Source: Alphaproteobacteria bacterium
GTDB lineage: Bacteria; Pseudomonadota; Alphaproteobacteria; Rs-D84
Assembly (NCBI GenBank): GCA_017535105.1
Contig: JAFXUI010000001.1
Coordinates: 80,945-144,944, forward strand
Length of the DNA: 64,000 nucleotides
Direction of reading: 5' to 3'
How positions within the stretch are numbered: the first letter of the stretch is position 1; each line of letters starts with the position of its first letter. Of the stretch, positions 14,644-32,111 are shown piece after piece. The notes below the pieces were generated by a model. The model saw nothing but the letters and a program-made list of their open reading frames with translations, did no database searches and was not told where the DNA came from. The position numbers and the translations under genes are program-made.

Positions 14644-14662
14644 TCAATCATTCGGAGAGAAA

Positions 14663-14959
14663 ATGAAACAGCAAGTATTGAAAGCTTTGGCAAATCCTGC
14701 GCGCATATTTTACGTGCCGTATAATTTGGCCGTGCTTAATTTTGCCGTACAATTCATTGTTTTTATGATATTTTTTATGATTGATTTATTTATAAACCAG
14801 GCGAATATGACAATTTCACCATTGTATTTTTTAATATCGGTGATAATTGTTCATTCTGTGTTGGGTGTGTTTTGTAAAAGGGATCCGCAACTGGGTCAGA
14901 TTGTGGTGGCCAAGATTCAGTTGTTTAAAAGAAAAATACCGGGAAAATTGGTGGCGTAA
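14663..14959 (+). CDS. virB3: Type IV secretion system protein VirB3/TrbD family
   Basis: About 99 aa from ATG 14663 (ORF track starts earlier at 14615); LKALANPARIFYVPYNLAVLNF matches VirB3 motif (LxKGLTRPxMxxGVPy), two TM helices; stop overlaps virB4 start. Confidence 0.7.
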   Translation: MKQQVLKALANPARIFYVPYNLAVLNFAVQFIVFMIFFMIDLFINQANMTISPLYFLISVIIVHSVLGVFCKRDPQLGQIVVAKIQLFKRKIPGKLVA

Positions 14960-17380
14960 ATGAACGAATTTTTTAATTATTTTGCCGGTGGTGGATATTC
15001 TATAACCATGACGATTTTGGTTATGGCGGTTATTTTCGTATTTATTGTTTTAATGCTTTATATCCCATCATTGTCGCGCCGCATATTCCCAAGTTTTGGT
15101 TATCGTCATTATGCGAATTATTTGCCGTTCAAAAATGTCTATAATGATAACACGATATCTTTGACCGATGGGTCACTGTTGCGTGTGTATCGTGTGTCTG
15201 GTGTCCAGACCAGTATGCAAGATGACGCGACCCGCGAAAAATTCTTGGATTTACGTGCGCAATTATTTAATCAAATTCGTGATCCAAATGTGACGTTACG
15301 TTTTTACATGGTGCGTGATGCGGCGGCGGATAATGAAAACTATGAATTTGATAATCAGGTTTTACAGGGTATTTATAACAAATGGCGCGCCCAGGGTTTA
15401 CGTATATTTATAAATAATTATTATATTGTGATTTCTGTGGCTGGTGGTGGCGCGCGTGAAAAATTAAATCAATATTGTAATTATATTGAATCAATATTGG
15501 CGGCGTATAAACCAAAGGTATTGAATAATAATACACGTGATAATATGGCGCGATTCTTTGGTCGTATTTTATCACCGATAAGCAAGCCCGCCCCGGTCGT
15601 TGCCGATAATAAAATTGCAGAGGCAGTGACGGTTGACGATGTTATATTTGAACGTGATGGAATTGTCCGCTATGTCAGTGGGGGCGCGCAAATGTTTGCG
15701 GCGGCGTTATCTTTCCGTATATCGCCAGATTATCTGGACGAAGATTTCTTTAATTCAATATCAACCATACAAACAGAAATGATTTGTATGAATGGTTTTC
15801 ATATCATGGGAACGGCGGATATTGAATCAACATTTCGTCAACGTAAATCAACCGCAGACGAAAATGAAACATCTACATTGGCCCAGGTGTCGGCGGCGCA
15901 AAGTGCGATGGACGAAAACATTTCTGGAAACCAGAGTTTGGTAAATTACTATCCGCTGTTTGTGATATTTGGTGCGACCGTTGAAGAATTAAACAAGTAT
16001 GTTGATGAGTTCAAAAAGATATCGGCATCGTTTGGTGTATCGCCAATTGTTGAAACATTTGCGTCAAAGGTTTCTTGGTTTTCACAAATACCGGGATTTG
16101 ATGTTTTCCCACGCAGTTTCAAGTTGCTGTCAAAAACGGCGGCGGTTTGTATCCCGATGTCCAGCACGCCACGCGGAATTGAAAATTCTGATTGGGGTCC
16201 GGGACCATTGGTTGTTTTCCCAACGGCCCAGGGTACACCATATATGTTCCAATTCCATGTTTCAGACAAACCAACCGCGGTGGGACATACATTAACAATC
16301 GGTCCAACCGGTGGTGGTAAAACAACTTTGTTCAGTTTTTTAATCGCGCAATCGTTGCGTCACCCAAAACTGAAAGCGTTTTTCTTTGACAGAAACAAGG
16401 GTGCCGAAATATTCACTTTGGCGGTTGGTGGAAAATATATCACTATGCGGGGCAAGGAAAAGAATACCGATCCAATGGCGAAAACTTTTGAAACGCGGTT
16501 GAATCCATTAAAGATGCCGGATACACCGGAAAATCGCGCGTTTTTGCGTCGTTGGTTTGCGATTATATCGGGACAAAATGACGCGGCGTCCGCCGATGAA
16601 ATTGCACGTGCGGTTTCGGTCAACTTTGATTATTTGTCGGACAAGGATAGGGTGCTGAAAAACCTTTGGGAAAGTTGTTTTTCGTCCAGTGGCGAAATGC
16701 GTGCGCCATTAAAGAAGTGGGTTGACCCATTACAATATGGCGATATGTTTAATGAAGACAGCGATACACTTGATTTGGGTGCGCGTCTTACAACATTTGA
16801 TTTTACCGATATTTTACAGGACGAGGTTTTATCGCCTGCGGTTATTTCATACATATTGCACCGTATAAACACGACAACGGTATCTGGTGGAAATCCATCA
16901 CTTATTATGATTGATGAAACAGCGCCAATGTTGGAAAACAAAATGTTCCGCGATAACTTTATTGCCGGCTTACAAGAAGGGCGCAAAAACCGTCAGGCAT
17001 ATATGGTCGCGTTCCAGCGCGCAAACGTTTTGGATAAACTTGGTATTGGTGATGTTGTTCGTGGCCAGGCGCAAACGGTATTATTCTTCCGTAATCCAGC
17101 CGCCGATGCGGGCGACTATGCACATTGGAATCTGAACCCGTTGGAAATGGCATTTATCCAGGGCAAGGCATATCCAAACTTGAAACGTGCGGTATTGTTG
17201 TCGCGTCCGGTAAATGGGGAATCGGTCATATTAAATACGGAACTTGGTGGGCTGGGCAATTTATTGCGCCTGTTTGAATCGGGTCGTCCATCGGTATTAC
17301 TGGCCGAAGAATTGTATAAAATGTATGGCGCGAATTTTGTTGCGGAATATCTGAAAAAGCAATCTGGCGGAAATGTTTAA
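14960..17380 (+). CDS. virB4: Type IV secretion system ATPase VirB4/TrbE/CagE family
   Basis: 806 aa; Walker A GPTGGGKTTL, Walker B LIMIDETAP; size and architecture of VirB4. Confidence 0.9.
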   Translation: MNEFFNYFAGGGYSITMTILVMAVIFVFIVLMLYIPSLSRRIFPSFGYRHYANYLPFKNVYNDNTISLTDGSLLRVYRVSGVQTSMQDDATREKFLDLRAQLFNQIRDPNVTLRFYMVRDAAADNENYEFDNQVLQGIYNKWRAQGLRIFINNYYIVISVAGGGAREKLNQYCNYIESILAAYKPKVLNNNTRDNMARFFGRILSPISKPAPVVADNKIAEAVTVDDVIFERDGIVRYVSGGAQMFAAALSFRISPDYLDEDFFNSISTIQTEMICMNGFHIMGTADIESTFRQRKSTADENETSTLAQVSAAQSAMDENISGNQSLVNYYPLFVIFGATVEELNKYVDEFKKISASFGVSPIVETFASKVSWFSQIPGFDVFPRSFKLLSKTAAVCIPMSSTPRGIENSDWGPGPLVVFPTAQGTPYMFQFHVSDKPTAVGHTLTIGPTGGGKTTLFSFLIAQSLRHPKLKAFFFDRNKGAEIFTLAVGGKYITMRGKEKNTDPMAKTFETRLNPLKMPDTPENRAFLRRWFAIISGQNDAASADEIARAVSVNFDYLSDKDRVLKNLWESCFSSSGEMRAPLKKWVDPLQYGDMFNEDSDTLDLGARLTTFDFTDILQDEVLSPAVISYILHRINTTTVSGGNPSLIMIDETAPMLENKMFRDNFIAGLQEGRKNRQAYMVAFQRANVLDKLGIGDVVRGQAQTVLFFRNPAADAGDYAHWNLNPLEMAFIQGKAYPNLKRAVLLSRPVNGESVILNTELGGLGNLLRLFESGRPSVLLAEELYKMYGANFVAEYLKKQSGGNV

Positions 17381-17984
17381 GAAAATCTTTATTTTGCCGA
17401 TAATGTTTTTTTGCTTTTCTGCAAATGCCAATGAATGTATGGCGTATAAAATAAAACCAAAAATCACAATCACAACCCCCGAATATGAAAAGCACGTTGT
17501 CCAATCAAAAAAGCCAATGAATCTGCTGCATGGCAACGTTGTTGCAACATTGGTTGATAACTATGATATTGTCGTGGAAATTAGCAAAATAAAAGATGGT
17601 TATTGTGTTGGTTTGAAATCGGTTGCGGCAACAATAGGGTACACCGATTTTATGGTAAAAATAGATTCCCGACATGGTGTAAATACTTGTTCGTACAAGG
17701 CGATATTAAATCACGAAAACCGGCACATAGACGCATACATATCGGTAATTGACGATAATAAACAAGATTTATACGATGCGATTTATTCGGCGGCAGACAG
17801 TATAATGCCGATATTTGTAAAGTCGCAAATGGACGCGGACAGCGCCGTTGAAAAAATGAACAGCGAATTACAAACACACCCCGATGTTGTTCTGGCGATA
17901 CAAAAGATTCACGCAGATGAAGAGATAAAAAATAAAAATATAGATAAACAAGAAAACTATTCTGAATTGAAAAGTTGTTTATAA
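17373..17984 (+). CDS. Secreted protein with HENRH (HExxH) motif; possible DUF922-like zinc metallopeptidase; co-transcribed with virB4
   Basis: Signal peptide MFKKIFILPIMFFCFSANA; NHENRHIDAY motif; 8-nt overlap with virB4 end. Confidence 0.55.
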   Translation: MFKKIFILPIMFFCFSANANECMAYKIKPKITITTPEYEKHVVQSKKPMNLLHGNVVATLVDNYDIVVEISKIKDGYCVGLKSVAATIGYTDFMVKIDSRHGVNTCSYKAILNHENRHIDAYISVIDDNKQDLYDAIYSAADSIMPIFVKSQMDADSAVEKMNSELQTHPDVVLAIQKIHADEEIKNKNIDKQENYSELKSCL

Positions 17985-18027: not shown

Positions 18028-18282
18028 TTATTTTTGATTATCTGGGTTATTTGGGTCATCGTGAATATATTTTACAAAGTCATCAATCTTTTGTCCGGTC
18101 GAAGATAAAATCTTGGCAATACTGCCGGTTGATGGCCAACGTGGTTGACCAAATTTTGACCAGCGTTTGCTTTTATTAAATGTTGTTGGGTCTAAACCAC
18201 TTGACCGCGCAAGGCCCGAACAAGACATTCCGTGTTCGCACGCAAATTTTTCAATTGCCAACCATATCTGATCATGTGTCAT
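18028..18282 (-). CDS. Small HTH DNA-binding protein, phage CI/LexA-N-terminal-like family (paralog 1)
   Basis: 84 aa from ATG 18282 with GGGGAGAG RBS: MTHDQIWLAIEKFACEHGMSCSGLARSSGLDPTTFNKSKRWSKFGQPRWPSTGSIAKIL...; no peptidase S24 domain. Confidence 0.7.
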   Translation of the reverse strand: MTHDQIWLAIEKFACEHGMSCSGLARSSGLDPTTFNKSKRWSKFGQPRWPSTGSIAKILSSTGQKIDDFVKYIHDDPNNPDNQK

Positions 18283-18359
18283 TTTTCTCTCCCCGTTTTT
18301 GTTTTTCGGAACAGTTGAATTATGTGGCAAAAAAAGGCTTATTTTCAATAGGTTGGTTA

Positions 18360-18367
18360 TCCTAGGA
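18360..18367. promoter_or_regulatory. Palindromic motif TCCTAGGA (CCYAGGAA half-site family) upstream of paralog 1
   Basis: Perfect 8-nt palindrome about 78 bp upstream of the minus-strand HTH gene start. Confidence 0.3.
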
Positions 18368-18541
18368 AATATTAGAACAAATAAAAATGATGATATGTTT
18401 TTATAAAAATACATAAAATATATTAGGAAAAATTGTCAATTTATAATAGATATTTATGTGCTGTATGTACCTGTTTTCCAAGTTTTTTTAATATAACGAT
18501 TCCTTTTTTAGAAACCCATTACATAAAAATGGGATAACAAA

Positions 18542-18565
18542 AATTCCCAGGAATTAAAATATAAT
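18542..18565 (+). promoter_or_regulatory. Operator-like palindrome AATTCCcaGGAATT abutting -10 TATAAT (18560-18565) of paralog 2
   Basis: 6-nt perfect arms with 2-nt centre, immediately upstream of TATAAT and 32 nt before AAGGAG-ATG of gene 18597. Confidence 0.4.
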
Positions 18566-18596
18566 GGACCGCGGTCATACAAAAAAGGAGATTAAA

Positions 18597-18824
18597 ATGA
18601 CTCATCAAGAGATCTGGCAAGCCATTGATAATTTCGCTTTTCAGCAAAAGATGTCTTGTTCTGGATTAGCAAAATTTGCAGGTTTAGATGCGACAACATT
18701 TAACAAAAGCAAACGTTGGTCTAAATATGGACAACCGCGGTGGCCGTCCACAGGCAGTATTGCCAAAATATTAAACTCTACGGGGAAAACAATAAGCGAT
18801 TTTATAAAATGTATTTGTGACTGA
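18597..18824 (+). CDS. Small HTH DNA-binding protein, paralog 2 of 18028..18282 (divergently oriented)
   Basis: 75 aa from ATG 18597 (AAGGAG 6 nt upstream): MTHQEIWQAIDNFAFQQKMSCSGLAKFAGLDATTFNKSKRWSKYGQPRWPSTGSIAKIL...; about 75% identical to paralog 1. Confidence 0.7.
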   Translation: MTHQEIWQAIDNFAFQQKMSCSGLAKFAGLDATTFNKSKRWSKYGQPRWPSTGSIAKILNSTGKTISDFIKCICD

Positions 18825-20390: not shown

Positions 20391-20524
20391 CCCTCGGCAT
20401 AAATGCCTGCGGGCAAATTTGTAGTTGCTTGAACTTCGCTTGCGCTTGTTCTCGCATACAAATTTTGAACCGGCAACTGCGTTGCGGGTCGCAAACCACG
20501 TCCAACAACAAATTAAATAAAAAA

Positions 20525-20547
20525 CACGCCACAAGGGCGTTTTTTTA
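20525..20547 (-). terminator. Terminator downstream of tRNA-fMet (bidirectional hairpin)
   Basis: ACGCCACAAGGGCGT flanked by A-run and T-run. Confidence 0.6.
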
Positions 20548-20554
20548 TTTAAAC

Positions 20555-20631
<77 letters not shown>

Positions 20632-20644
20632 ATAAGTGCTGTTT

Positions 20645-20672
20645 ATTATATACTAAAATCACCAAGTGTCAA
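20645..20672 (-). promoter_or_regulatory. Consensus sigma70 promoter for tRNA-fMet (TTGACA-16 nt-TATAAT on minus strand)
   Basis: Reverse complement catTTGACActtggtgattttagtaTATAATaaacagcacttat then tRNA 5' end. Confidence 0.65.
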
Positions 20673-20706
20673 ATGAAATGTGGAAAATATGTCCGTGCTT
20701 TTCGGT

Positions 20707-20746
20707 TGTCATCCCCGCGAAGGCGGGGATCCAGTGCCCCGCAGGG
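20707..20746 (+). repeat. Palindromic interspersed repeat, copy D
   Basis: tgtcatccccgcgaaggcggggatccagtgccccgcaggg. Confidence 0.7.
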
Positions 20747-20799
20747 AATTTATAATTGTGTCGCGACAAAGTCGCGTGCATTGTTATTTACTGTCTGCG

Positions 20800-20835
20800 A
20801 CGCAGTGGATACCGGCCTTCGCCGGTATGACGAGT
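20800..20835 (-). repeat. Palindromic interspersed repeat, diverged copy E (inverted)
   Basis: Reverse complement cactcgtcataccggcgaaggccggtatccactgcg; same architecture with CCGGCGAAGGCCGG core. Confidence 0.5.
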
Positions 20836-20909
20836 GTGATGTATTCTTTGTACCGGTCACTAACGTCGCACCCTTGCATATTGCTTTTTTTATTGCTAAA
20901 CTTGTGAAC

Positions 20910-21713
20910 ATGGCAAAAAAGAAAAGTTTGTTTAGACGGGTATGGAAGGGGTTTTGGGACATTGTTTTAAGCATTGGGCTTATACAATGGCTGATTGCCG
21001 TACTTATTGCGACACCAATTTGGTTTGTATATTTGACAAGTCGTATAAAAATTACGGGCTATGAAATATTTAAGCAATACCGGAAAAAACCGGCCATATT
21101 TGTATTCTGGCATGGGCGCAGTATGATGTTATCGCCAATTATTGCGGTTGGTGGTATGCGGGCGTATGCAATATCCAGCAAGCATCACGATGGGCGCATA
21201 ATGGCCAAGGTGCAACGTTTATTCGGTTTGCGTCCGATTTACGGGTCAACAACGGACGGTGGGTTGTCGGTGTTGCGTGGCGGTTTGCGCGTGTTGGCGG
21301 ACGGTCGCTATTCGTTGTGTATTTCACCAGACGGGCCGGGGGGACCATCGTTGCGTGTTCAAGACGGCGCGTTATATTTTGCTAAAATGAGTGGTGCGCC
21401 AATTATTCCAGTGTGTTATTCTGCATCGCGTGCATGGTTTATGAATCGCTGGGACCGGTATTTAATTGTGAAACCTTTTTCACGTGTAAAGTGTGTTTTG
21501 GGTGATCCGATTTTTGTGCCACGTCGTGCGACTGAAACAGAGTTTAATGAAATCAAAAATTCGCTTGAAAAATATATGGTTGATATGGTCCATAAAATGG
21601 ACGGCGAATTTAATCATAAAATGGTAGAGCAAGATTACAAGGCGGGTCGGTTCAAGCGGGAATTGCGTGCGGCACGTGCCGAACGCCGCAATAAAAAGAA
21701 AGGGTTGATATAA
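20910..21713 (+). CDS. DUF374-domain lysophospholipid acyltransferase-family protein (classically linked to kdtA/lpxK)
   Basis: 267 aa from ATG 20910 (ORF-track N-extension overlaps the tRNA and repeats and is spurious); TM anchor then IFVFWHGRSMM...; TAATG overlap with lpxK. Confidence 0.7.
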   Translation: MAKKKSLFRRVWKGFWDIVLSIGLIQWLIAVLIATPIWFVYLTSRIKITGYEIFKQYRKKPAIFVFWHGRSMMLSPIIAVGGMRAYAISSKHHDGRIMAKVQRLFGLRPIYGSTTDGGLSVLRGGLRVLADGRYSLCISPDGPGGPSLRVQDGALYFAKMSGAPIIPVCYSASRAWFMNRWDRYLIVKPFSRVKCVLGDPIFVPRRATETEFNEIKNSLEKYMVDMVHKMDGEFNHKMVEQDYKAGRFKRELRAARAERRNKKKGLI

Positions 21714-22615
21714 TGAAAACGCCATATTGGTTTATGCATAAAACTTTGCTGGCTTTTATTTTGGTGCCGTTTTCATGGGTATATTATGGCGTATCGCGCG
21801 CGGTGTTCGGTGTTCGTAAAATGCGTGCCTATAAATCAAAACGACCGGTTATTTGTATTGGAAATATTTTGGCGGGTGGGGTTGGTAAAACACCAATTGT
21901 TCGTGAAATTGCGACATATTTAGACGCACCGGTGGTTATGCGTGGATACAAGAAATCGGCGCATACAGGAAATATTGGGGACGAGGCGACAATGCTTTCG
22001 CGTGCCGGTTTAATTGTTCATACGGGTAATCGCAAAAGTAATGTTATGCTGCTGGATCGTCAGCGCGATAAATCGCCAATAGTTATGGACGATGGATTAC
22101 AAAACCCAACGGTTGAAAAAAATATTTCAATAGTGGTGTTTGATGAATCTATTGGTTTTGGAAATGGGTTTTTATTGCCGGCGGGTCCATTACGCGAACC
22201 GCGTGATCATATTGCAAATGCCGATGCGATTATGATTGTACGTTCCAAGAATCGCAAAAAAAACTTTACGATTCCAACGGGTGTGCCGGTATTCTATGCG
22301 ACAAATCAAACCATATCGCCGTATGATGAAAAAACACCGATTGTTGCGTTTGCGGGAATTGGTTACCCAAAAAAGTTTTTTGCGTGCTTAAATAACGTTG
22401 TTGCGCGTCGCGCGTTTCCAGACCATTATCAGTACACAGATGCCGATATTGAAAAACTGTTAAAGTTGGCGAAAAGCAAAAAAGCAAAATTAGTCACGAC
22501 TGAAAAAGACTGGGTGCGGTTGCCAGAAAGCGTACGTGATAAAATAAAGTTCGCGACACTGAAAACAGAGATTCAAGGCGACTTTTGGAATTGGTTGGGG
22601 GAGAAATTAAAATGA
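21713..22615 (+). CDS. lpxK: Tetraacyldisaccharide 4'-kinase
   Basis: 300 aa; CIGNILAGGVGKTP P-loop signature of LpxK. Confidence 0.9.
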   Translation: MKTPYWFMHKTLLAFILVPFSWVYYGVSRAVFGVRKMRAYKSKRPVICIGNILAGGVGKTPIVREIATYLDAPVVMRGYKKSAHTGNIGDEATMLSRAGLIVHTGNRKSNVMLLDRQRDKSPIVMDDGLQNPTVEKNISIVVFDESIGFGNGFLLPAGPLREPRDHIANADAIMIVRSKNRKKNFTIPTGVPVFYATNQTISPYDEKTPIVAFAGIGYPKKFFACLNNVVARRAFPDHYQYTDADIEKLLKLAKSKKAKLVTTEKDWVRLPESVRDKIKFATLKTEIQGDFWNWLGEKLK

Positions 22616-23553
22616 CCACATTATTAAAAACTATAAAATTAGTGGGCAAAGGTATTCATTCGGGGTTGTCAGTTGAAATAAAAATCAAACCGTCAAAAAA
22701 GCCGGGTATTTTCTTTCAGCGCGTTGACATCGCAGGGTCAAAACCGATGCCCGCAAAATACGATAATGTGGGTGAGGCGAAAATGCGCAACACCACGATT
22801 GGCGCTGTATCGGGCGCGCATGTACAAACAGTTGAACATTTAATGGCGGCATTATTTATTTGTGGTGTGGACAGTGCGTTGGTTGAAATAAATGGGGCGG
22901 AAACACCAATTATGGACGGCAGTGCGTTTTTGTTCATAAATGAAATTATGCGGGCCGGTGTGACGCGCGGAAAAATGCGTAAGATTATTGTTAAAAAGCC
23001 GGTTGTCGCCTATACACGTGAAGTGCGACGTGAATTACCAAAACTGTTTCGGTTGAAATTATGGATTGCTGACAAAATCGCGCATCGTAAAAGTGATGGT
23101 TTTGTAAAACTTTCGCCAAATGATGGAAAATCATTGGATATAACTGCGACACTGGTTTATCCAGAAAAAATTATTGGTTCACAAACATATTCTTATGCTT
23201 TTGACGGAACAAAAAAGTCTGCGAACACGTTTATAAAGCAAATTGCACGTGCGCGTACTTTTGGAAAATATTCCGAATGGGAATACCTTAAAAAACACGG
23301 TATGGGGCGGGGCGCAGACGAAACAAATGTAATCGCGCTGAATAACGCAGGTGATGGAACATTAAACAAACTTATGTGGCCGGACGAATTTGTGCGACAC
23401 AAGATAATTGATGCGGTTGGCGATATGGCAACATCGGGTGGTATCATTTGTGGAAAACTGGAATCATATAAGGGAAGTCATGCACTGAATAATATCGTGT
23501 TGAAAAAGTTGTTCAGTGATGTTGAAAATTATGATATAGTTGAAGAGAAATAA
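22612..23553 (+). CDS. lpxC: UDP-3-O-acyl-N-acetylglucosamine deacetylase
   Basis: 313 aa from ATG 22612 (GGGAGA RBS): MTTLLKTIKLVGKGIHSG...HVQTVEHLMAAL..., LpxC hallmarks; ATGA overlap with lpxK. Confidence 0.9.
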   Translation: MTTLLKTIKLVGKGIHSGLSVEIKIKPSKKPGIFFQRVDIAGSKPMPAKYDNVGEAKMRNTTIGAVSGAHVQTVEHLMAALFICGVDSALVEINGAETPIMDGSAFLFINEIMRAGVTRGKMRKIIVKKPVVAYTREVRRELPKLFRLKLWIADKIAHRKSDGFVKLSPNDGKSLDITATLVYPEKIIGSQTYSYAFDGTKKSANTFIKQIARARTFGKYSEWEYLKKHGMGRGADETNVIALNNAGDGTLNKLMWPDEFVRHKIIDAVGDMATSGGIICGKLESYKGSHALNNIVLKKLFSDVENYDIVEEK

Positions 23554-23569
23554 AAATACGGGGGAAACT

Positions 23570-23950
23570 ATGAAGAAAATATTTGCTTTATTGGGAATTC
23601 TTGCACTGGCGGCATGTGGCGGTATGATTAAAAATGAAAACGGCAGTGAATTTATCACCCAATTAGACGCGGAACCAATCGGTTGTACATTTTTGTATAA
23701 ATTGGAAACAGAGGTCAGTGTTTATGATGCCGAAGATGCACGCCGGTATATGGAAAACCGTATCGCAGACCAGGCACGTCCGGGTAATGCGTACTGGATT
23801 GTTTCCCAACGTACAAAACCAAATGAATGGGTAATATTTGGCCCAGAACGTTCGTTTGTCTTGGTTGCAAACGTGTATGATTGTCCACACCCAAGTAATA
23901 TGCGCACTGCGCGTGACGGTGGGTCGGCGACAGCATCGTATGGGTATTAA
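23570..23950 (+). CDS. Lipoprotein of unknown function
   Basis: MKKIFALLGILALAACGG lipobox; GGGGGA RBS; 126 aa. Confidence 0.6.
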   Translation: MKKIFALLGILALAACGGMIKNENGSEFITQLDAEPIGCTFLYKLETEVSVYDAEDARRYMENRIADQARPGNAYWIVSQRTKPNEWVIFGPERSFVLVANVYDCPHPSNMRTARDGGSATASYGY

Positions 23951-23976
23951 TAAATCTGGTTTTTTTATAAGATTTT

Positions 23977-24012
23977 GTCCCGTCAATAAAAATGACGGGA
24001 TTTTTTATTCTG
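23977..24012 (+). terminator. Strong rho-independent terminator
   Basis: GTCCCGTCAATAAAAATGACGGGATTTTTTATT. Confidence 0.75.
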
Positions 24013-24025
24013 TGTTTGCCAAGGC

Positions 24026-25330
24026 GTGTTATTTTGTGTTATAATTACACAAAAGCAGAGAGAGAAATTGACAAATCAAACAGTAACGGTTCGTAAAAGG
24101 AAGTATGCCGTTGATCTTTTTTGGCAACCGGTGTCTTCGCGTGGGGGTGGGCGCAGTGGCGCGCACCGTCTTGCGCATGAAATTGATGGCCGTTACAGCC
24201 TGTATATCGAATACAACCAAATGATTGGCCTTGCCATGCGCAAGAGCGGCGCACGGCGCGGAATGGCATCTGCGGCAGCCGAGGTTGTAGAAGCAATGTC
24301 GGAACATTCGACATTTTTGGCGGCGTTTGAAATAAATGGCGGTTTTTATATTGTTGCGGTTCGTAACGGTATTATTTTACAAGATAAATTTTATGATTCT
24401 GAATCTGCGGCACGAAATGAATATTCGGCACTTGCGGAAATGCCTGATTGGGCGGCCTTTATCGCGCCAAGTGCATGGGGAATGCCACGTGCGGTTGAAT
24501 ATAAATTGGAAGATGTTATAACCGGCCATTCGCATGCGACATTGCGGTCGATAAGTTTATATGGTTCGCTGATTGTTTCGGTTGGTTTAATTGTTTTGTT
24601 TGTCGGAACAATGCTCTGGATTTTCAGTGACCCGATTGTACAAACGGTTTCACCACGTTCAGAAATTGGAAAGGTTGATTCTGAATTGGCTGCGGAATAT
24701 AAACGCCAGGTTGAACAGAAAAACAAACAGTTAGATGCGGAATATAACATCGAAAAGAAATTACCCCCAGAACCGATTGTTTTGCCGTACGAAATTTTGC
24801 CGGATATGATGGGGCGGGCCGATGTTTGCTATCGTGCGATTGGATTTTTAATGCAACAGATTCCGGGTTGGATTCAAACACGTGTAAAGTGTGACGAAAC
24901 ACACGCAACGGCACAAATTCGTCGTTCGTTTGGAACGTTGGGTGATTTTTATACTGTGGCATCTGATTTGATGCCGGGCGCATACGTTCAAGAATTGTCT
25001 GATGATTTGGTTTCTGTGCGTGTTAAATTGCCAGACGTTGATATTGTCCCAAGTCAAGATGAACGTGATGCGGATACAATTGTTCGTGATGTGACAACAC
25101 TGTTCCAGGGTATAAATACATCGGCGGAAATTCACGCGGTCACAGACACGGTGACAAATGGTGTTGATACTGAAAACTTTGATATCGTTGAAATTGCAGC
25201 ATCGTCAAAAATGGTGCCAATGCAGTTTATGCAAATATTTGCAGATTTCGGCGGTGTTTATTTGACGGCGTGTGATTGGAATTATTCTAATCGCACATGG
25301 AACTATGAGGTGATAATCTATGCTAAATAA
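24026..25330 (+). CDS. Bitopic inner-membrane assembly protein, GspL/BfpC/PilO(R64)-like (cytoplasmic about 180 aa, one TM, periplasmic about 220 aa); first gene of orphan T2SS/T4bP-like cluster
   Basis: Single TM LYGSLIVSVGLIVLFVGTMLWIF mid-protein; architecture and position before PilP-like protein, GspE ATPase and GspF platform; likely real start TTG 24068 after TGtTATAAT (24037-24045) and GAGAGAGA RBS. Confidence 0.45.
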   Translation: MLFCVIITQKQREKLTNQTVTVRKRKYAVDLFWQPVSSRGGGRSGAHRLAHEIDGRYSLYIEYNQMIGLAMRKSGARRGMASAAAEVVEAMSEHSTFLAAFEINGGFYIVAVRNGIILQDKFYDSESAARNEYSALAEMPDWAAFIAPSAWGMPRAVEYKLEDVITGHSHATLRSISLYGSLIVSVGLIVLFVGTMLWIFSDPIVQTVSPRSEIGKVDSELAAEYKRQVEQKNKQLDAEYNIEKKLPPEPIVLPYEILPDMMGRADVCYRAIGFLMQQIPGWIQTRVKCDETHATAQIRRSFGTLGDFYTVASDLMPGAYVQELSDDLVSVRVKLPDVDIVPSQDERDADTIVRDVTTLFQGINTSAEIHAVTDTVTNGVDTENFDIVEIAASSKMVPMQFMQIFADFGGVYLTACDWNYSNRTWNYEVIIYAK

Positions 25331-26015
25331 AATAAAAATGTTTATGGTGTGTGTGCTTGTTGGTGGCATGTTTGCAACCACAGCGTCATATTCCGCGACC
25401 GAAGAAATATTGGTTGATGATGTTGATATGGAAGAAGTTTCGGCCGATGCGGTTGCGAACTATGATGTTTCGGGCAGTGTGTTCCAACAAATAACCGATT
25501 TGGAACAAGAAAAAGTTTTAATGCAACTTGAAAAAGAACGCGCACAACTGGATTTAGATTTAGACAGATTGGCCGCAGAAAAAATAAAACTGCACATGGA
25601 AATTGATGCGTTGTCTGGCCGCGCAGATGTACAACAGCAAGAACTGGAAACCCAAATGGCAAAATTGGAAGCAGAAGCCGTACGTTTGGAAAAAGAAAGA
25701 GAAAAATTAGAAGCCGAAGATGAAAAACCAACTGCGTCTTCAAAATCATCATCGGGTTCTTCGTCCAGTTTGTTTGCCGAAGAAGAAAAGAAAGACAATC
25801 CTATTTCCAAAAAATATAAATTGGTGAATGTTATTGGTGCGGGTTCCCAACTTCAGGCAACAATTGCAGATTTGGCAACCGGTCAAAACAAACGTATTTC
25901 AGCAGGACGTGTTTTAGATGGATATGTTGTTAAATCTATATCGCTGGACGAAGGTGTTGTGTTGGTCAAAGGTTCCGACACACAAACATTAAACGTGAAC
26001 AACAACTCAAAATAA
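25320..26015 (+). CDS. PilP/GspC-like periplasmic protein (N-terminal anchor, coiled coil, Ser-rich linker, C-terminal beta domain)
   Basis: MLNKIKMFMVCVLVGGMFATTASYSA; coiled coil LEQEKVLMQLEKERAQLDLDLDRLAAEKIKL...; C-terminal KYKLVNVIGAGSQLQATIADLATGQNKRISAGRVLDGYVVKSISLDEGVVLVKG resembles PilP/GspC HR domain. Confidence 0.45.
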   Translation: MLNKIKMFMVCVLVGGMFATTASYSATEEILVDDVDMEEVSADAVANYDVSGSVFQQITDLEQEKVLMQLEKERAQLDLDLDRLAAEKIKLHMEIDALSGRADVQQQELETQMAKLEAEAVRLEKEREKLEAEDEKPTASSKSSSGSSSSLFAEEEKKDNPISKKYKLVNVIGAGSQLQATIADLATGQNKRISAGRVLDGYVVKSISLDEGVVLVKGSDTQTLNVNNNSK

Positions 26016-26028
26016 TTTAAGTGAAAAA

Positions 26029-27669
26029 ATGAAAAATCAAGAAGACGATTTTTTTGGTAATGTTGGCGCACAAGATCAAAAACCATCTGTTCCAGCAGGG
26101 TTGGAAAACGCCGAAAATAAAGATATCATAGAATATCTGTTTTCCAACGGTAATCGTCTGTTGACTGCGACGGGTGGGACAATGGAATTGTCCCGTGATA
26201 TGCAGAGTTTCATTGCCTATTTTTCGGGTGGTGAAATTATTATTTCACGTACACACCAATATGATGGTCGTGTGTTGGCGTTCATAGATTTATTAAAACG
26301 GCGTTCACATGTTGTACGCAAACCATTCTATTCTGATTTGGGTTTGGTTTCTGGTATTTATAAGGCATACGAAGGGCACATCGGCAGTAGTGCGCGTGGC
26401 GGTCACGAATATGACAACCAGATGCAGAAAGATTTTGTCGATATTATCGCCAAAGCAGCAGCTCAAAAAGTTTCGGATATTCATATTGAGGTTGGTGACC
26501 AAACAACAATATATTTCCGTATTGATGGCAGTATGCAACCAGTATTGGAATATAACGCGGCGTGGGGTGAAGCTTTTGTTCGTGCCGCATTTGCATCGGC
26601 GGATATGTCGAACGCGAACTATGCGCAAAATGAATATCAATCTGCACAAAAAGACGGTCGTACACCGTTGCGCGGAACGCGTGATTTATATTTGCCGGCC
26701 GGTATTTTAAGTATTCGTATGCAGTTTAATCCGATTGCATTTGGGTCGCGTTATGTTGTCATGCGACTGTTATACGATAACCCAACCGAAGGAATTAAAA
26801 CCGAACAGGAATTCAGTCCGTATGAACAAAAATTATTGATGCGTATGCGTTCATTTCCAACGGGTTTGGTAATTGTTGCGGGTCCAACAAGTTCTGGTAA
26901 ATCAACGACATTGGTACGCAATATGTCAATGATGTTAAAGGAACGTAATTATGAAATAAATATGATTACGGTGGAAAATCCTGTTGAACAAAAAATTTTC
27001 GGTGCACACCAAATGCCCGTTACAAACGCAATGAACGAAGAGCAACGTGACGAAGCGTACACCGAAGCATTGGCGGCCGCATTGCGCAGTGACCCCGATA
27101 CATTGATGGTTGGTGAAATTCGAACGCTGGCGGCGGCACAATTAACTTTGCGTGGTGCATTGTCGGGTCACAATGTTTGGACAACATTACATGCTAATTC
27201 GGCAATGGCGGCATTGACGCGACTGCTTGATATGGGTATCGAAAGTTTCAAGTTAAAAGAAGAAACGTTGATGCGTGGTTTAATATCAATGCGTTTATTC
27301 AAAAAGGTTTGTCCGCATTGTCATGAACCTTTGATTAATCACCCAGAAAATCCGGCGTATAAACGTGTTCTGGACGCATTCGGCGAAATAGGATTAAAGC
27401 AAGTGTATATTCGTGGTCCGGGCTGTGATTTGTGTAAAGGCACAGGTACACTGGGGCGTATCAAGGCGGGTGAGGTTATTATTACCAACAGTGAATTTTT
27501 ATCACTTGCGTTGTCGGGTAAAACAGATGAGGCAGTGAAATACTGGCTTGAAGAAATGGACGGTCGTACGTTGAAAGAAGCCGCATCAGAATTGATGTTG
27601 TTGGGTGTAATTAGTGTTGATGAACTGGAACGTTGGGTTGGATTGCTTGACAGACCGGGGGTGTATTAA
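26029..27669 (+). CDS. GspE/PilB-family secretion ATPase (T2SS E / type IVb pilus assembly ATPase; R64 PilQ / BfpD / TcpT-like)
   Basis: 546 aa; Walker A GPTSSGKSTT, Walker B DTLMVGEIR, His box TTLHANSA, tetracysteine CPHC...CDLC zinc motif. Confidence 0.85.
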   Translation: MKNQEDDFFGNVGAQDQKPSVPAGLENAENKDIIEYLFSNGNRLLTATGGTMELSRDMQSFIAYFSGGEIIISRTHQYDGRVLAFIDLLKRRSHVVRKPFYSDLGLVSGIYKAYEGHIGSSARGGHEYDNQMQKDFVDIIAKAAAQKVSDIHIEVGDQTTIYFRIDGSMQPVLEYNAAWGEAFVRAAFASADMSNANYAQNEYQSAQKDGRTPLRGTRDLYLPAGILSIRMQFNPIAFGSRYVVMRLLYDNPTEGIKTEQEFSPYEQKLLMRMRSFPTGLVIVAGPTSSGKSTTLVRNMSMMLKERNYEINMITVENPVEQKIFGAHQMPVTNAMNEEQRDEAYTEALAAALRSDPDTLMVGEIRTLAAAQLTLRGALSGHNVWTTLHANSAMAALTRLLDMGIESFKLKEETLMRGLISMRLFKKVCPHCHEPLINHPENPAYKRVLDAFGEIGLKQVYIRGPGCDLCKGTGTLGRIKAGEVIITNSEFLSLALSGKTDEAVKYWLEEMDGRTLKEAASELMLLGVISVDELERWVGLLDRPGVY

Positions 27670-27670
27670 T

Positions 27671-28741
27671 ATGAGTCGTTTGGACCTTTGGTATGCACGT
27701 TTAGTTTTTCGTATGAATACGGAAAAACGTATGGCGACACTTCGTAAGTTGGCGTCACTGTTGCGTAACGACTTTACATTAATGGACGCATTAAACCGTA
27801 TTGAAATGATTGAATCGCACGGTGGCACAAAACCCAATGAACCGTTCGCGATTGTTATGCGCCAGTGGCAGAAAAACCTTGAACGTGGTATGAGTTTTTC
27901 CGATACGACGCGCGGTTGGTTGCCAGATGATGAAACACTTTTGGTGACAAGTGGTAATATTTCTAATTTGGTTGTTGCACTTGAAAACACAACACGTGTG
28001 GTCGAAGGCGCAGAACGTATCCGCCGTGCTATGCGTAATGCGTTGGCGTACCCGTTGTTTTTGTTAGCATTAACATTTGGTATAATCGTTATGGTTGGAT
28101 TGTACCTTGTTCCGCCATTGATTGAGGTTGCCGGTAACGGTATTATATGGCGTGGTGTTGCCGGTGGCTTGATTTCTTTATCTGACTTTATGGTGGTAAG
28201 TTGGTATTGGTTTGTTATAGGTATGTTCTTGCTGTTCGTGTTTGTCGGTCTGTCTTTGGAAAATTGGTCGGGCCGTTTGCGTGCCAAGTTCGATAAAATA
28301 CCACCATGGAACATTTATAAAATTCGTATATCGGTTGGTTGGTTGATGTCATTATCATCAATGGTTGCGGCGGGTATTACAATGCCGGACGCAATGCGTA
28401 TGTTGGCGGATAATTCAAGCAAGTATTTGCGCGATATATTGGAAGAAACATTACACAATATCGCAAACGGTGAAAACTTGGGCCAGGCATTGTTAAATAC
28501 TGGACGTGATTTTCCAAACTCTGAAATCATCGGTGACTTGATGATTTACGCAGATATGAATGATTTTGATAAAAACTTAACAGCCATAGCCAATGACTAT
28601 CTGAATGATTCTGTGCGCAAAATGGAAGCAATATCGAATGTGTTAAACAGTATCGGTATTTTAATGGTTTCTGGAATAATCGCATGGGTGGTTTTGGGAA
28701 CGTTCCAGATGCAAGATCAAATCACAGCGGCATTAAGTTAA
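27671..28741 (+). CDS. GspF/PilC-family inner-membrane platform protein
   Basis: 356 aa from ATG 27671 (TAATATG overlap with the ATPase gene); two cytoplasmic repeats and three TMs, typical GspF architecture. Confidence 0.8.
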   Translation: MSRLDLWYARLVFRMNTEKRMATLRKLASLLRNDFTLMDALNRIEMIESHGGTKPNEPFAIVMRQWQKNLERGMSFSDTTRGWLPDDETLLVTSGNISNLVVALENTTRVVEGAERIRRAMRNALAYPLFLLALTFGIIVMVGLYLVPPLIEVAGNGIIWRGVAGGLISLSDFMVVSWYWFVIGMFLLFVFVGLSLENWSGRLRAKFDKIPPWNIYKIRISVGWLMSLSSMVAAGITMPDAMRMLADNSSKYLRDILEETLHNIANGENLGQALLNTGRDFPNSEIIGDLMIYADMNDFDKNLTAIANDYLNDSVRKMEAISNVLNSIGILMVSGIIAWVVLGTFQMQDQITAALS

Positions 28742-28757
28742 AGTTGAAATAAAAAAA

Positions 28758-28782
28758 TACCGGCAAATGCCGGTATTTTTTA
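28758..28782 (+). terminator. Bidirectional rho-independent terminator (CCGGCAAATGCCGG family)
   Basis: AAAAAAATACCGGCAAATGCCGGTATTTTTTATT. Confidence 0.7.
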
Positions 28783-28793
28783 TTGTTTTTTTA

Positions 28794-29363
28794 TTACACC
28801 ATAAATGGCAGATTTTCCAAAGTTCCTTCGGCCACACGGACGTTTACGTCAATCATCATAAACACTGAATCTGGTGTTTTTGGAAAGTCGCCAGAAAAGA
28901 GCGAAGTGTCCAACAAGTGCGAAGTGTTGACCGATATTTTGGTTATTAAATGGTCATCGTCCAGAAGTGTATAAATTGGCCCAATATCACGTGGTGTGTT
29001 TTCGCCAATTTCGTGTTCATTTTGCGGACAACGCAAACCATCAAACAATGTTTTAATGCGGTTATCAATATCAGAACGTGAAACGCCGACAATTTCGGGG
29101 TGTAACATTTGGATATCCAGTTCCGCAATAAGTTTCAAACTGGGGGTTATAATTGGGTTCCAATCAATTCCGCCAATATGCCGGGTAATAATCGGGCTTT
29201 TTGTTGGATTTGGCATCATAAATTGGGTCAATTTGTCCCATGGGCTGTGTTCAATCAGTTTCTTTAATTGTGGGTGAAACTGCATACGAATATCAGATAT
29301 ATGCTGGGCGCGCTTTTTTGGGTTCACCAAAATGTCGCCAAAGTATAATAACTTGAATTTCAT
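28794..29363 (-). CDS. Hypothetical protein (189 aa), second gene of a two-gene overlapping module
   Basis: ORF MKFKLLYFGDILVNPKKRAQHISDIRMQF...; ATGA overlap with the upstream 86-aa gene; no recognisable motif. Confidence 0.55.
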   Translation of the reverse strand: MKFKLLYFGDILVNPKKRAQHISDIRMQFHPQLKKLIEHSPWDKLTQFMMPNPTKSPIITRHIGGIDWNPIITPSLKLIAELDIQMLHPEIVGVSRSDIDNRIKTLFDGLRCPQNEHEIGENTPRDIGPIYTLLDDDHLITKISVNTSHLLDTSLFSGDFPKTPDSVFMMIDVNVRVAEGTLENLPFMV

Positions 29364-29620
29364 TTGTTCTTTCCTTTGATTTCGTTCAATATTTCAATGA
29401 ATTTTTGTTGGGCGGGTTCTTCTGGGCGCAGATGAAGCCGGCCGTGGTCAGACGTAATTATTTCGTATAATCTGTTACTTACCTTTACTGTGGCGCGCCG
29501 CAAATATGCCTTTTTCATTGCTTTTTCAACAAGTTCGCGTTCTTCTTCGTGCTTTTTCGCATATTGCGGACCGGTCAAAAAATCGGCCTTTGTAAAGTAT
29601 TGAGATTTTGCTGCTGGCAT
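29360..29620 (-). CDS. Hypothetical small protein (86 aa), first gene of the two-gene module
   Basis: MPAAKSQYFTKADFLTGPQYAKKHEEERELVEKAMKKAYLRRATVKVSNRLYEIITSDHGRLHLRPEE...; 4-nt overlap with downstream gene. Confidence 0.5.
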   Translation of the reverse strand: MPAAKSQYFTKADFLTGPQYAKKHEEERELVEKAMKKAYLRRATVKVSNRLYEIITSDHGRLHLRPEEPAQQKFIEILNEIKGKNK

Positions 29621-29693
29621 AGTGTTTTTCCCCTTAGTTTTTTGTTATTTTCCTTGAAAATTATACCATAAATTGCTATCTTTTACACGTTAA

Positions 29694-32111
<2,418 letters not shown>

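What the first reader, a model, noticed from the sequence alone, without database searches (positions are those of the whole stretch)
24026..28741. Orphan T2SS/type IVb pilus-like assembly module (GspL-like, PilP-like, GspE ATPase, GspF platform) with no pilin, secretin or prepilin peptidase nearby
Four consecutive co-oriented genes directly after lpxK-lpxC and the lipoprotein gene 23570..23950 encode a bitopic GspL/BfpC-like protein (about 420 aa), a PilP/GspC-like protein (231 aa), a tetracysteine GspE-family ATPase (546 aa) and a GspF-family platform (356 aa). The order and sizes mirror PilO-PilP-PilQ-PilR of IncI1 (R64) thin-pilus loci and BfpC/BfpD/BfpE. The operon ends at a terminator with none of the other canonical components (major or minor pilins, secretin, class III signal peptidase) adjacent, and it is embedded in chromosomal housekeeping context. 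This may be a minimal or remodelled export or pilus machine in a reduced genome, or an inner-membrane subassembly whose remaining parts are dispersed (candidate secretin-like lipoprotein at 51183..52520).
Basis: partly seen in the sequence, partly recalled or inferred. Interest (0 to 1): 0.7.

Follow-up and report, generated by a model that had tools for sequence, protein, structure and literature searches.

The report
Split-up type IVb pilus motor
These four genes encode the inner-membrane core of a plasmid-R64/BFP-style type IVb pilus in a tiny-genome gut bacterium (Candidatus Enterousia); they only look orphaned, because related genomes keep the pilins and the outer-membrane pore at other chromosomal sites.

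Summary
The unit runs promoter, pilO2 (24068..25330), pilP (25320..26015), BfpD/PilQ-type ATPase (26029..27669), PilR-type platform (27671..28741), terminator.

All four assignments were tested and met:
- PilP: TIGR03021 in 39/39 orthologues.
- ATPase: BfpD, E 4e-78.
- Platform: T2SSF.

No pilin, secretin or prepilin peptidase was found in the 64-kb window or in the 10 kb beyond its right end.

The window comes from Ca. Enterousia (order Rs-D84, genomes under 1 Mb). The four genes are co-conserved in all 85 related loci, mostly next to lpxK-lpxC. dN/dS is 0.04-0.13, similar to the flanking housekeeping genes.

In relatives the other parts sit elsewhere:
- A PilS-type pilin after dnaX.
- Three 400-480-aa pilin-like proteins.
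- In a subset, TcpQ plus a PilN-type lipoprotein secretin.

So this is the inner-membrane subassembly of a dispersed type IVb pilus, not a minimal machine.

It is not the orthologue of the canonical secretin.

The parts
24016..24045 (+). sigma-70-like promoter of the four-gene unit (TTGCCA, 18-nt spacer with TG, TATAAT)
   Evidence: Matches 11 of 12 consensus positions and is the best + strand site in 20400..29800. It follows the terminator-like hairpin at 23977..24001. This is a consensus match only, with no functional evidence.
24068..25330 (+). pilO2: bitopic PilO2/BfpC-family protein of 420 aa. Cytoplasmic actin-like domain, one TM helix (about residues 164-185), periplasmic domain of four alpha-beta-beta units.
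25320..26015 (+). pilP: 231 aa, with signal peptide, long coiled coil, Ser-rich linker and a C-terminal PilP-family domain
   Evidence: TIGR03021 pilP_fam scores 36.5 bits, above the 34.65 cut-off. All 39 of 39 orthologues match it, best E 2.7e-10. The gene overlaps pilO2 by 11 nt.
26029..27669 (+). Type IVb assembly ATPase (R64 PilQ / BfpD type), 546 aa, with Walker A GPTSSGKST and tetracysteine motif CPHC...CDLC
   Evidence: T2SSE 3.8e-63. The best PDB match is BfpD 8dze, E 4.1e-78, 266 bits, near full length; GspE scores about 155 bits. It is 33-36% identical to ATPases inside R64-like plasmid pil loci. Median identity among relatives is 82%, and dN/dS is 0.039.
27671..28741 (+). Platform protein (R64 PilR / BfpE / GspF family), 356 aa
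   Evidence: T2SSF 5.6e-24 in two stretches. It is 32% identical over 356 aa to the Bosea pil-locus platform, E 2e-73. The ATG lies one base after the ATPase stop. dN/dS is 0.052.
28752..28781 (+). Intrinsic-terminator-like hairpin that closes the unit
   Evidence: 13-bp stem, 4-nt loop and a T-run; the strongest such site in the region.
51183..52520 (+). Possible but unproven associated part: a 445-aa lipoprotein with secretin-type N0-N1 domains, 4 nt upstream of lolC/E-lolD
   Evidence: It has no Pfam family; the STN domain scores only E 0.011. The AF2 model is confident only for about residues 93-190 and intermediate (about 50-60) to residue 240. Foldseek PDB top hits are almost all secretin periplasmic domains: EscC 7.6e-6, BfpB 8.6e-6, MxiD, PilQ, InvG. 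hhalign against PilN secretins is weak, E 0.015-0.2. More than 1200 homologues exist, the best 120 at 77-94% identity. It is not homologous by BLAST to the clade's canonical secretin.

Best explanation
The four genes form one operon. It encodes the inner-membrane core of an R64/PAPI-1/BFP-class type IVb pilus machine in Candidatus Enterousia, a gut alphaproteobacterium of order Rs-D84 with a genome under 1 Mb.

Proposed mechanism (inferred from the characterised homologues, not tested here):
- The hexameric BfpD/PilQ-type ATPase docks on the PilR platform and on the cytoplasmic actin-like domain of bitopic PilO2.
- The periplasmic alpha-beta-beta domains of PilO2, together with PilP, bridge to an outer-membrane channel.
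- ATP hydrolysis drives processed pilins out of the inner membrane into a growing filament.

The module is not a stand-alone or minimal machine. In this clade the machine is split over several chromosomal loci:
- A 152-aa PilS-type major pilin after dnaX.
- A nearby operon of three 400-480-aa pilin-like proteins, probably a tip or adhesin complex.
- In at least some species, a TcpQ-domain protein plus a PilN-type lipoprotein secretin beside the suf genes.

The most likely role is a surface pilus for attachment to a partner or host cell. DNA uptake is possible as well. The organism appears to depend on other cells.

Shown here: the identities, the operon structure, co-conservation, purifying selection, and the presence of the other parts in relatives.
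Inferred: that the window's own genome carries those parts, the physical assembly, and the biological role.
For: Identity of the four proteins.

Operon signals: promoter-like site, two terminator-like hairpins, overlapping or abutting genes.

Organism: Ca. Enterousia-type MAGs. Published genomes are under 1 Mb and a partner-dependent lifestyle is predicted (PMC12306168).

Co-conservation among 85 related loci (five of the 85 repeat the window's own contig or other loci in the set):
- PilO2 in 85, PilP in 85, ATPase in 82, platform in 80. The shortfalls coincide with loci that end close to the module (short contigs), which was not checked locus by locus.
- 342 GTDB species representatives encode a PilO2 relative.
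- lpxK-lpxC-lipoprotein-pilO2PQR synteny in 73 of 85.
- In 8 loci with another context, exactly the four genes travel together; the lipoprotein gene does not.

Purifying selection: dN/dS is 0.039 for the ATPase, 0.052 for the platform, 0.129 for PilO2 and 0.110 for PilP. For comparison, LpxK is 0.107, LpxC 0.112 and GyrB 0.025.

Other parts in relatives:
- L082:8001-8459 hits PF08805 PilS at 24.1 bits (cut-off 22) plus N_methyl, with leader MKSQSG|RSLIE.
- Three large ORFs carry G|xxxxE/Q class III-type N-termini.
- The same four-pilin locus recurs in 7 long metagenome contigs, and at least 295 pilin relatives were confirmed.
- L027:39-839 hits PF00263 at 52.7 bits and is 33% identical to E. 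coli and Bosea pil-locus secretins.
- TcpQ (PF10671) lies directly upstream in L088 and L089.
- None of the 79 pilin loci has pilO2PQR within 10 kb, so dispersal is the rule.
Against: - No pilin, secretin, TcpQ or peptidase could be shown for the window's own genome. Only the 64-kb window, about 10 kb beyond its right end and a close relative's left flank were readable.
- No A24 prepilin peptidase was found in any fetched locus.
- The canonical PilN-type secretin gave only 57 protein clusters, against more than 823 for PilO2. Many species may therefore lack it. One copy (L089) has an in-frame stop.
- No PilT-like retraction ATPase was seen.
- The pilin-bearing relatives shown are 52-57% identical in PilO2 to the window's species. 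The link rests on clade-wide inference.
- dS is about 1.2, so the dN/dS values are rough.
Confidence: 0.7

Rival explanations
1. A truly orphan or minimal machine. In this species the pilins, secretin and peptidase have been lost, and the four proteins have been kept for a remodelled filament-independent role such as an ATP-driven inner-membrane export or import device.
For: Nothing else pilus-like lies in the 64-kb window or in the flanks read. The canonical secretin looks patchy in the clade, with 57 clusters. One copy carries a stop codon. The genome is extremely reduced.
Against: PilS-type pilins with the conserved leader are abundant in the same habitats and clade, with at least 295 confirmed. 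Seven loci share the complete four-pilin arrangement. All four module genes evolve under constraint as strong as lpxC/lpxK. PilO2's periplasmic domain (pLDDT 85-93) and PilP's C-terminal domain are the parts that face a filament and a secretin in characterised systems, and both are retained.
Confidence: 0.1
2. A T2SS-like protein-secretion apparatus. The module drives a short pseudopilus that pushes folded proteins through a secretin, as in the Gsp system, rather than building a surface pilus.
For: The ATPase and platform belong to the shared T2SSE and T2SSF superfamilies. GspE and GspF models score next best. PilO2 shares folds with GspL. Some type IVb systems, such as TCP, also secrete a protein (from general knowledge, not tested here).
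Against: GspE and GspF scores are far below the family cut-offs: 220 against 630 bits, and 66 against 424 bits. BfpD is the best solved match by more than 110 bits. PF06864 PilO2, TIGR03021 PilP, PF08805 PilS, PF10671 TcpQ and a PilN-type lipoprotein secretin are all type IVb markers. No GspC/D/G-K/M set was seen.
Confidence: 0.08
3. A competence (DNA-uptake) pilus. The same machine, but its main job is binding and importing DNA as a nucleotide source in an organism that lacks nucleotide synthesis.
For: A TfoX_N-like small protein lies at 57136..57447, at 28.3 bits, just below the 30.1 cut-off. The lineage lacks nucleotide biosynthesis. Type IV pili commonly serve in DNA uptake (general knowledge).
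Against: No ComEA, ComEC or DprA was looked for or seen. No retraction ATPase was found. The TfoX hit is sub-threshold and lies about 28 kb away. R64/BFP-class pili are known for adhesion, aggregation and mating rather than transformation (general knowledge).
Confidence: 0.1
4. A decaying remnant of a horizontally acquired plasmid or ICE pil operon, with no current function.
For: R64-type pil loci are typically on plasmids, ICEs and islands. Only 4 of about 10-14 genes are present here.
Against: All four reading frames are intact. The arrangement is conserved across at least 80 species-level genomes. dN/dS is 0.04-0.13. GC content is the same as the flanks, 0.42-0.43. No mobile-element genes are adjacent.
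Confidence: 0.02

Closest known systems
IncI1 plasmid R64 thin pilus (pilI-V), and its relatives on P. aeruginosa PAPI-1 and B. pseudomallei Tfp7 (PilO2 family, PF06864)
   Same: The order pilO(2)-pilP-pilQ(ATPase)-pilR(platform) is the same, and all four protein families match. Relatives also carry a PilS-family pilin, TcpQ/PilL-like proteins and a PilN-type lipoprotein secretin.
   Different: Those systems are contiguous 10-14-gene operons on plasmids, ICEs or islands. Here the genes are chromosomal, vertically inherited and split over at least three loci. No pilU peptidase, pilT, pilM or shufflon-type pilV was found. Instead of one PilV adhesin there are three 400-480-aa pilin-like proteins. 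Sequence identity is only 23-36%.
EPEC bundle-forming pilus core: BfpC (bitopic), BfpD (ATPase), BfpE (platform), BfpB/BfpG (lipoprotein secretin complex)
   Different: The bfp operon is a single plasmid cluster that includes bundlin, the BfpP peptidase and the BfpF retraction ATPase. None of these is adjacent here.
Type II secretion inner-membrane platform (GspC/L/M/E/F)
   Same: Same superfamilies for the ATPase and the platform. The GspL-type architecture (actin-like cytoplasmic domain, TM helix, ferredoxin-like periplasmic domain) is shared with PilO2.
   Different: Scores are far below the Gsp equivalog cut-offs. No GspC, GspM, GspD or pseudopilin set was found. The type IVb-specific markers are present instead.
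Type IVa pilus systems (pilMNOPQ, pilBCD, pilA, minor-pilin operon) and the scattered rvh T4SS of Rickettsiales
   Same: The genes of one envelope machine are dispersed over several chromosomal loci. This is routine for type IVa pili and for Rickettsiales T4SS (general knowledge). The window also has an isolated virB3-virB4 pair.
   Different: The protein families here are the type IVb set (PilO2, PilP-TIGR03021, PilS, TcpQ, PilN), not PilM/N/O/P/Q of type IVa pili.

Membership tests
R64/PAPI-1-type type IVb pilus system | PilO2-family bitopic protein (PF06864; actin-like cytoplasmic domain) | tested here: met
R64/PAPI-1-type type IVb pilus system | PilP (TIGR03021) encoded next to pilO2 | tested here: met
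   36.5 bits, above the 34.65 cut-off. All 39 of 39 orthologues match.
R64/PAPI-1-type type IVb pilus system | Assembly ATPase of the PilQ(R64)/BfpD type with Walker A and a tetracysteine motif | tested here: met
   T2SSE 3.8e-63. BfpD 4.1e-78 over near full length. Motifs read from the translation.
R64/PAPI-1-type type IVb pilus system | Polytopic platform protein (T2SSF; PilR/BfpE) | tested here: met
   T2SSF 5.6e-24. 32% identity to the Bosea pil-locus platform.
R64/PAPI-1-type type IVb pilus system | PilS-type prepilin with a class III signal peptide | tested here: inconclusive
   None in the window. Present in relatives of the same clade: L082, L041, L013 and at least 295 metagenome loci, with PF08805 at 24.1 bits. 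The rest of this genome was not readable.
R64/PAPI-1-type type IVb pilus system | PilN-type lipoprotein secretin (PF00263), with a TcpQ/PilL partner | tested here: inconclusive
   Absent from the window. Present in some relatives: L027, L088, L089, L137. Only 57 clusters were found. The window's 445-aa lipoprotein has secretin-like N0-N1 domains only.
R64/PAPI-1-type type IVb pilus system | Prepilin peptidase (A24; PilU/BfpP). It may be borrowed from another system, as in PAPI-1. | tested here: not met
   No BLAST match and no GxGD[K/R] motif in the window or in about 170 fetched loci. Whole genomes could not be searched.
R64/PAPI-1-type type IVb pilus system | All components in one contiguous operon on a plasmid, ICE or island (typical, but not strictly defining) | tested here: not met
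   The module is chromosomal, flanked by lpxK-lpxC and gyrB, in 73 of 85 loci. The pilin loci are more than 10 kb away in all 79 metagenome pilin loci; two GTDB loci, L082 and L041, are the exception.
Type II secretion system (Gsp) | GspE and GspF equivalogs at family cut-off, plus GspC, GspD, GspL, GspM and GspG-K | tested here: not met
   GspE scores 220.5 bits against a cut-off of 630. GspF scores 65.6 against 424. No other Gsp family was found in the window.
Type IVa pilus system | PilM/PilN/PilO (PF04350)/PilP/PilQ alignment complex with PilB/PilC | tested here: not met
   PilB scores 189 bits against a cut-off of 676. The only PilM_2 hit is the FtsA-like ORF at 47875..49650. The PilO and PilN resemblance is at fold level only.

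The most novel reading that the evidence does not exclude
Most Enterousia/Rs-D84 genomes may have lost the canonical PilN secretin. They may instead use the highly conserved 445-aa lipoprotein (51183..52520) as a new, Pfam-invisible outer-membrane conduit for the dispersed type IVb pilus, or for the equally scattered VirB T4SS. That protein has secretin-type N0-N1 domains, a C-terminal half with no recognisable family, and is probably co-transcribed with lolCDE. If so, it would be a reduced secretin derivative in an obligate gut symbiont that uses the pilus to tap partner cells.
Probability: 0.2. Interest if true: 0.7.

Novelty: new member of a known kind. Interest (0 to 1): 0.4.

Why it matters
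Ca. Enterousia and order Rs-D84 are uncultured gut bacteria with genomes under 1 Mb. They lack respiration, most biosynthesis and standard transporters, and are predicted to live off other cells (PMC12306168). How they contact a partner is unknown, and that paper reports no pili for them.

A type IVb pilus core as constrained as the flanking housekeeping genes is a concrete candidate for that contact device. It was seen in every related locus examined; 342 species representatives encode a PilO2 relative. It comes with a clade-wide pilin and three very large pilin-like proteins.

It is also an example of an R64/BFP-class pilus, normally a compact mobile-element operon, that has become a vertically inherited chromosomal system split over several loci.

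Methodological point: an 'orphan' call made from one window needs checking against related genomes before a minimal machine is proposed.

Tried and rejected
- PilP against the Bosea locus 'hypothetical' protein by BLASTP was not significant. PilP against PDB gave only coiled-coil noise.
- The first genome scan, with a 37-sequence PilO2 alignment, failed for lack of a conserved stretch. It worked with 19 closer sequences.
- For the 445-aa lipoprotein, AF2 gave mean pLDDT 41.7 with an unfolded C-terminal half. hhalign against PilN-type secretins gave E 0.2, 0.015 and a spurious signal-peptide match. BLASTP against the clade's true secretin was not significant. I therefore do not call it a secretin.
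- The adjacent 126-aa lipoprotein was rejected as part of the module. A terminator separates it, and it stays with lpxC when pilO2PQR is elsewhere.
- Extending the window: the right flank holds polysaccharide genes. The first look-up for the left flank hit an unrelated short contig. A close relative's left flank holds tRNA synthetases and four small paralogues that are not pilins.
- Motif and BLAST searches for an A24 peptidase in all fetched loci were negative.
- No paper was found that links Rs-D84 or Enterousia to pili.


Full report
OBSERVATION

The four co-oriented ORFs are present as described.
- Gene 1 is best read from TTG 24068, giving 420 aa. The upstream GTG at 24026 lies inside a near-consensus sigma-70-like promoter, TTGCCA-18(TG)-TATAAT, at 24016..24045. 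The public gene call on the source contig also gives 420 aa.
- Gene 2 (25320..26015) overlaps gene 1 by 11 nt.
- Gene 3 is 26029..27669.
- Gene 4 is best read from ATG 27671, one base after the ATPase stop. That gives 356 aa, as in all relatives.
- Terminator-like hairpins lie at 23977..24001, after the upstream lipoprotein gene, and at 28752..28781, after gene 4.

The four genes therefore look like one transcription unit. These are consensus matches, not measurements.

IDENTITY OF THE FOUR PROTEINS

ATPase (gene 3):
- It hits Pfam T2SSE at 3.8e-63.
- Among solved structures it matches BfpD, the assembly ATPase of the EPEC bundle-forming (type IVb) pilus, at 4.1e-78 and 266 bits over almost its full length. 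GspE and PilB/PilF follow at 123-155 bits.
- GspE and PilB equivalog scores are far below their cut-offs.
- Its best matches in plasmids are ATPases inside R64-like pil loci, at 33-36% identity.
- Walker A (GPTSSGKST) and the tetracysteine motif (CPHC...CDLC) are in the translation.

Platform (gene 4): it hits T2SSF at 5.6e-24. It is 32% identical over 356 residues to the platform of a Bosea plasmid pil locus.

PilP (gene 2): it reaches the curated cut-off of TIGR03021 pilP_fam, 36.5 against 34.65 bits. All 39 of 39 orthologues from related loci match that model.

PilO2 (gene 1):
- It gives no direct family hit.
- 38 of 40 homologues (54-87% identical) hit PF06864 PAP_PilO. NCBI names several of them 'type 4b pilus protein PilO2'.
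- It aligns to Bosea PilO2 at E 3e-19.
- A family profile hits the crystal structures of the cytoplasmic domains of BfpC (2.5e-8) and B. pseudomallei PilO2 (8e-7).
- An AF2 model (pLDDT 73) has a TM helix at about residues 164-185 and a periplasmic domain of four alpha-beta-beta units.
- The paper on PilO2Bp defines PF06864 as the marker of the R64-type variant of type IVb pili (PMC3984277).

WHAT IS NOT IN THE WINDOW

- No ORF in any frame has a class III signal peptide.
- There is no A24 peptidase motif.
- tblastn with pilins, secretins and TcpQ from relatives or reference loci finds nothing in the window. The reference A24 peptidase and PilT were compared only with the related loci.
- The other ORFs are housekeeping genes: mreC, PBP2, rodA, topA, dnaG, ychF, lpxK, lpxC, gyrB, ung, aspS, uvrB, ftsQ/A and lolCDE. 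There are also a virB3-virB4 pair and some proteins of unknown function.
- The 10 kb beyond the right end holds polysaccharide-synthesis genes.
- The left flank of a close relative holds tRNA synthetases.

ORGANISM AND CONSERVATION

The window is part of a 166-kb ENA metagenome scaffold. A scan of GTDB species representatives found 342 genomes that encode a PilO2 relative. The best 80 are MAGs labelled Candidatus Enterousia, Alphaproteobacteria or 'Rickettsiales', from animal and human guts. Enterousia (order Rs-D84) has genomes mostly under 1 Mb. It has no respiration and few transporters, and a partner-dependent lifestyle is predicted. The paper that describes this reports no pili for the lineage (PMC12306168).

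Results from the 85 related loci examined (five of them repeat the window's own contig or other loci in the set):
- PilO2 and PilP are in all 85. The ATPase is in 82 and the platform in 80; the shortfalls coincide with loci that end close to the module.
- 73 loci keep the order DUF374-lpxK-lpxC-lipoprotein-pilO2-P-Q-R, usually followed by a conserved 189-aa gene and gyrB.
- In eight loci with a different neighbourhood, exactly the four genes move together and the lipoprotein gene does not. The module is these four genes.
- Median identities to the window are 82% (ATPase), 72% (platform), 60% (PilP) and 55% (PilO2).
- In 31-39 moderately diverged pairs per gene, dN/dS is 0.039 (ATPase), 0.052 (platform), 0.110 (PilP) and 0.129 (PilO2). 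For comparison, LpxK is 0.107, LpxC 0.112 and GyrB 0.025. dS is about 1.2, so these values are rough.

The module is functional and vertically inherited, not a relic.

WHERE THE OTHER PARTS ARE

Pilins:
- In L082 and L041 a rearrangement has placed the module next to dnaX.
- Between dnaX and an OmpA/Skp pair lies a 152-aa gene. It hits PF08805 PilS at 24.1 bits (cut-off 22) and N_methyl, with the leader MKSQSG|RSLIEVIGVLAI.
- On the other strand an operon encodes three proteins of 458, 406 and 438 aa. Their N-termini are pilin-like: G|SFLMQ, G|ASITE and G|NMLME. A zinc-ribbon membrane protein and a secreted protein follow.
- L013 has a second pilin type, G|RSMIE.
- A scan of metagenome contigs with these pilins confirmed at least 295 relatives.
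- Fourteen of those loci have the pilin beside a dnaX homologue; 13 also have the OmpA-family gene and 10 the Skp gene. Seven long loci carry all four pilin-like genes in the same arrangement.
- None of the 79 pilin loci has pilO2PQR within 10 kb.

Secretin:
- In L027, a species with the usual lpxC synteny, the C-terminal part of a true secretin lies 9 kb upstream. It hits PF00263 at 52.7 bits and is 33% identical to the secretins of the E. coli and Bosea pil loci.
- Its homologues are lipoproteins of about 545 aa, which JGI labels 'type IVB pilus formation R64 PilN family'.
- A TcpQ-domain protein (PF10671) precedes them, next to the suf genes.
- Only 57 clusters were found, against more than 823 for PilO2. 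One copy has an in-frame stop. The canonical secretin may therefore be patchy in the clade. The word-based prefilter of that search makes this tentative.

Peptidase: no prepilin peptidase was found in any fetched locus.

- It is a lipoprotein 4 nt upstream of lolC/E-lolD. It has more than 1200 homologues, the best 120 at 77-94% identity.
- It has no Pfam family; STN scores only E 0.011.
- It has no BLAST similarity to the clade's true secretin.
- hhalign matches to PilN secretins are weak, E 0.015-0.2. Two of the three comparisons align the start of the secretin domain; the third gave only a spurious signal-peptide match.
- The AF2 model is poor overall (pLDDT 41.7). It is confident for about residues 93-190 and intermediate to about residue 240.
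- That part matches almost exclusively secretin N0-N1 domains in PDB: EscC 7.6e-6, BfpB 8.6e-6, MxiD, PilQ, InvG and XcpQ.
- N0-like domains also occur in T4SS lipoproteins; DotD is in the hit list.

I record it as having secretin-like N-domains, with its function unresolved.

INTERPRETATION

The finding is the inner-membrane subassembly of an R64/BFP-class type IVb pilus: PilO2, PilP, the assembly ATPase and the platform. In Enterousia its genes are dispersed over several chromosomal loci. How the machine works is inferred from the characterised homologues. That the window's own genome holds the pilins, the channel and a peptidase is inferred from relatives and could not be checked with the tools available.

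The reading as a minimal machine, the T2SS reading and the relic reading are each disfavoured, for the reasons given under the rival explanations.

The system is a new member of a known kind, with an organisation that is unusual for type IVb pili. Its interest lies in the organism: it is a plausible device for contacting partner cells in an uncultured gut lineage with a reduced genome.

Noticed in passing
window 14615..17984 (+): An isolated virB3 (PF05101, 6.2e-9), virB4 (806 aa, CagE_TrbE_VirB) and 203-aa secreted protein, with no other virB genes in the window. A VirB4 homologue lies within 10 kb of the pil module in 33 of the related loci, on either strand. This suggests a T4SS scattered over the chromosome, as in Rickettsiales.
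   Followed up: partly
window 51183..52520 (+), followed by 52524..54502: A 445-aa lipoprotein with no Pfam family. Its best 120 homologues are 77-94% identical. The partly confident model matches secretin N0-N1 domains. It lies 4 nt upstream of lolC/E-lolD, which suggests co-transcription with the lipoprotein-sorting ABC transporter.
   Followed up: partly
window 57136..57447 (-): A 103-aa protein matches the TfoX N-terminal domain (1.9e-6, 28.3 bits, just under the 30.1 cut-off). TfoX/Sxy proteins regulate competence and pilus genes in other bacteria.
   Followed up: no
window 28794..29363 (-): A 189-aa gene directly downstream of the module on the opposite strand. It is among the most conserved in the region (median 85% identity, dN/dS 0.02) yet has no Pfam or NCBIfam family. 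By eye it carries a RusA-like DIDN..K...D.L motif; this was not tested.
   Followed up: partly
window 47875..49650 (-): A single 591-aa ORF combines an FtsA/PilM_2-like N-terminal part with a full ribulose-phosphate 3-epimerase domain (residues 391-573). This is either a gene fusion or two genes read through in this assembly.
   Followed up: no
window 18028..18414 (-) and 18564..18824 (+): A divergently oriented pair of small paralogous proteins. They share a long near-identical stretch (…MTH.QIW.AI..FA….MSCSGLA..(S/A)GLD.TTFNKSKRWSK(F/Y)GQPRWPSTGSIAKIL…). It looks like a duplicated HTH regulator pair next to a LysR-type gene.
   Followed up: no
L089 5536..7167: In one relative the canonical PilN-type secretin gene has a single in-frame stop codon about two-thirds of the way in. 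This may be a pseudogene, or an assembly or recoding artefact. In L088 the same gene is interrupted only by a run of N.
   Followed up: partly
L082 965..5914 (-), and the same region in L041, L091-L095, L098, L102: A conserved operon of three unusually large (400-480 aa) proteins with pilin-type N-termini, followed by a zinc-ribbon membrane protein (175 aa) and a secreted 169-aa protein. None has a Pfam family, apart from a weak sub-threshold zinc-ribbon match in the 175-aa protein. It may be a novel pilus tip or adhesin complex.
   Followed up: partly
L171 17681..19705 (-): Four tandem paralogous genes of 147-167 aa with no Pfam family, between ileS and gidA in a close relative of the window's organism. 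They are not pilins.
   Followed up: no
window 9404..11611 (+): A 735-aa secreted protein (signal peptide MSMKSLFTLVIALFLVAPVHA) with no Pfam family, between dnaG and a GIY-YIG gene. It could be a surface protein.
   Followed up: no
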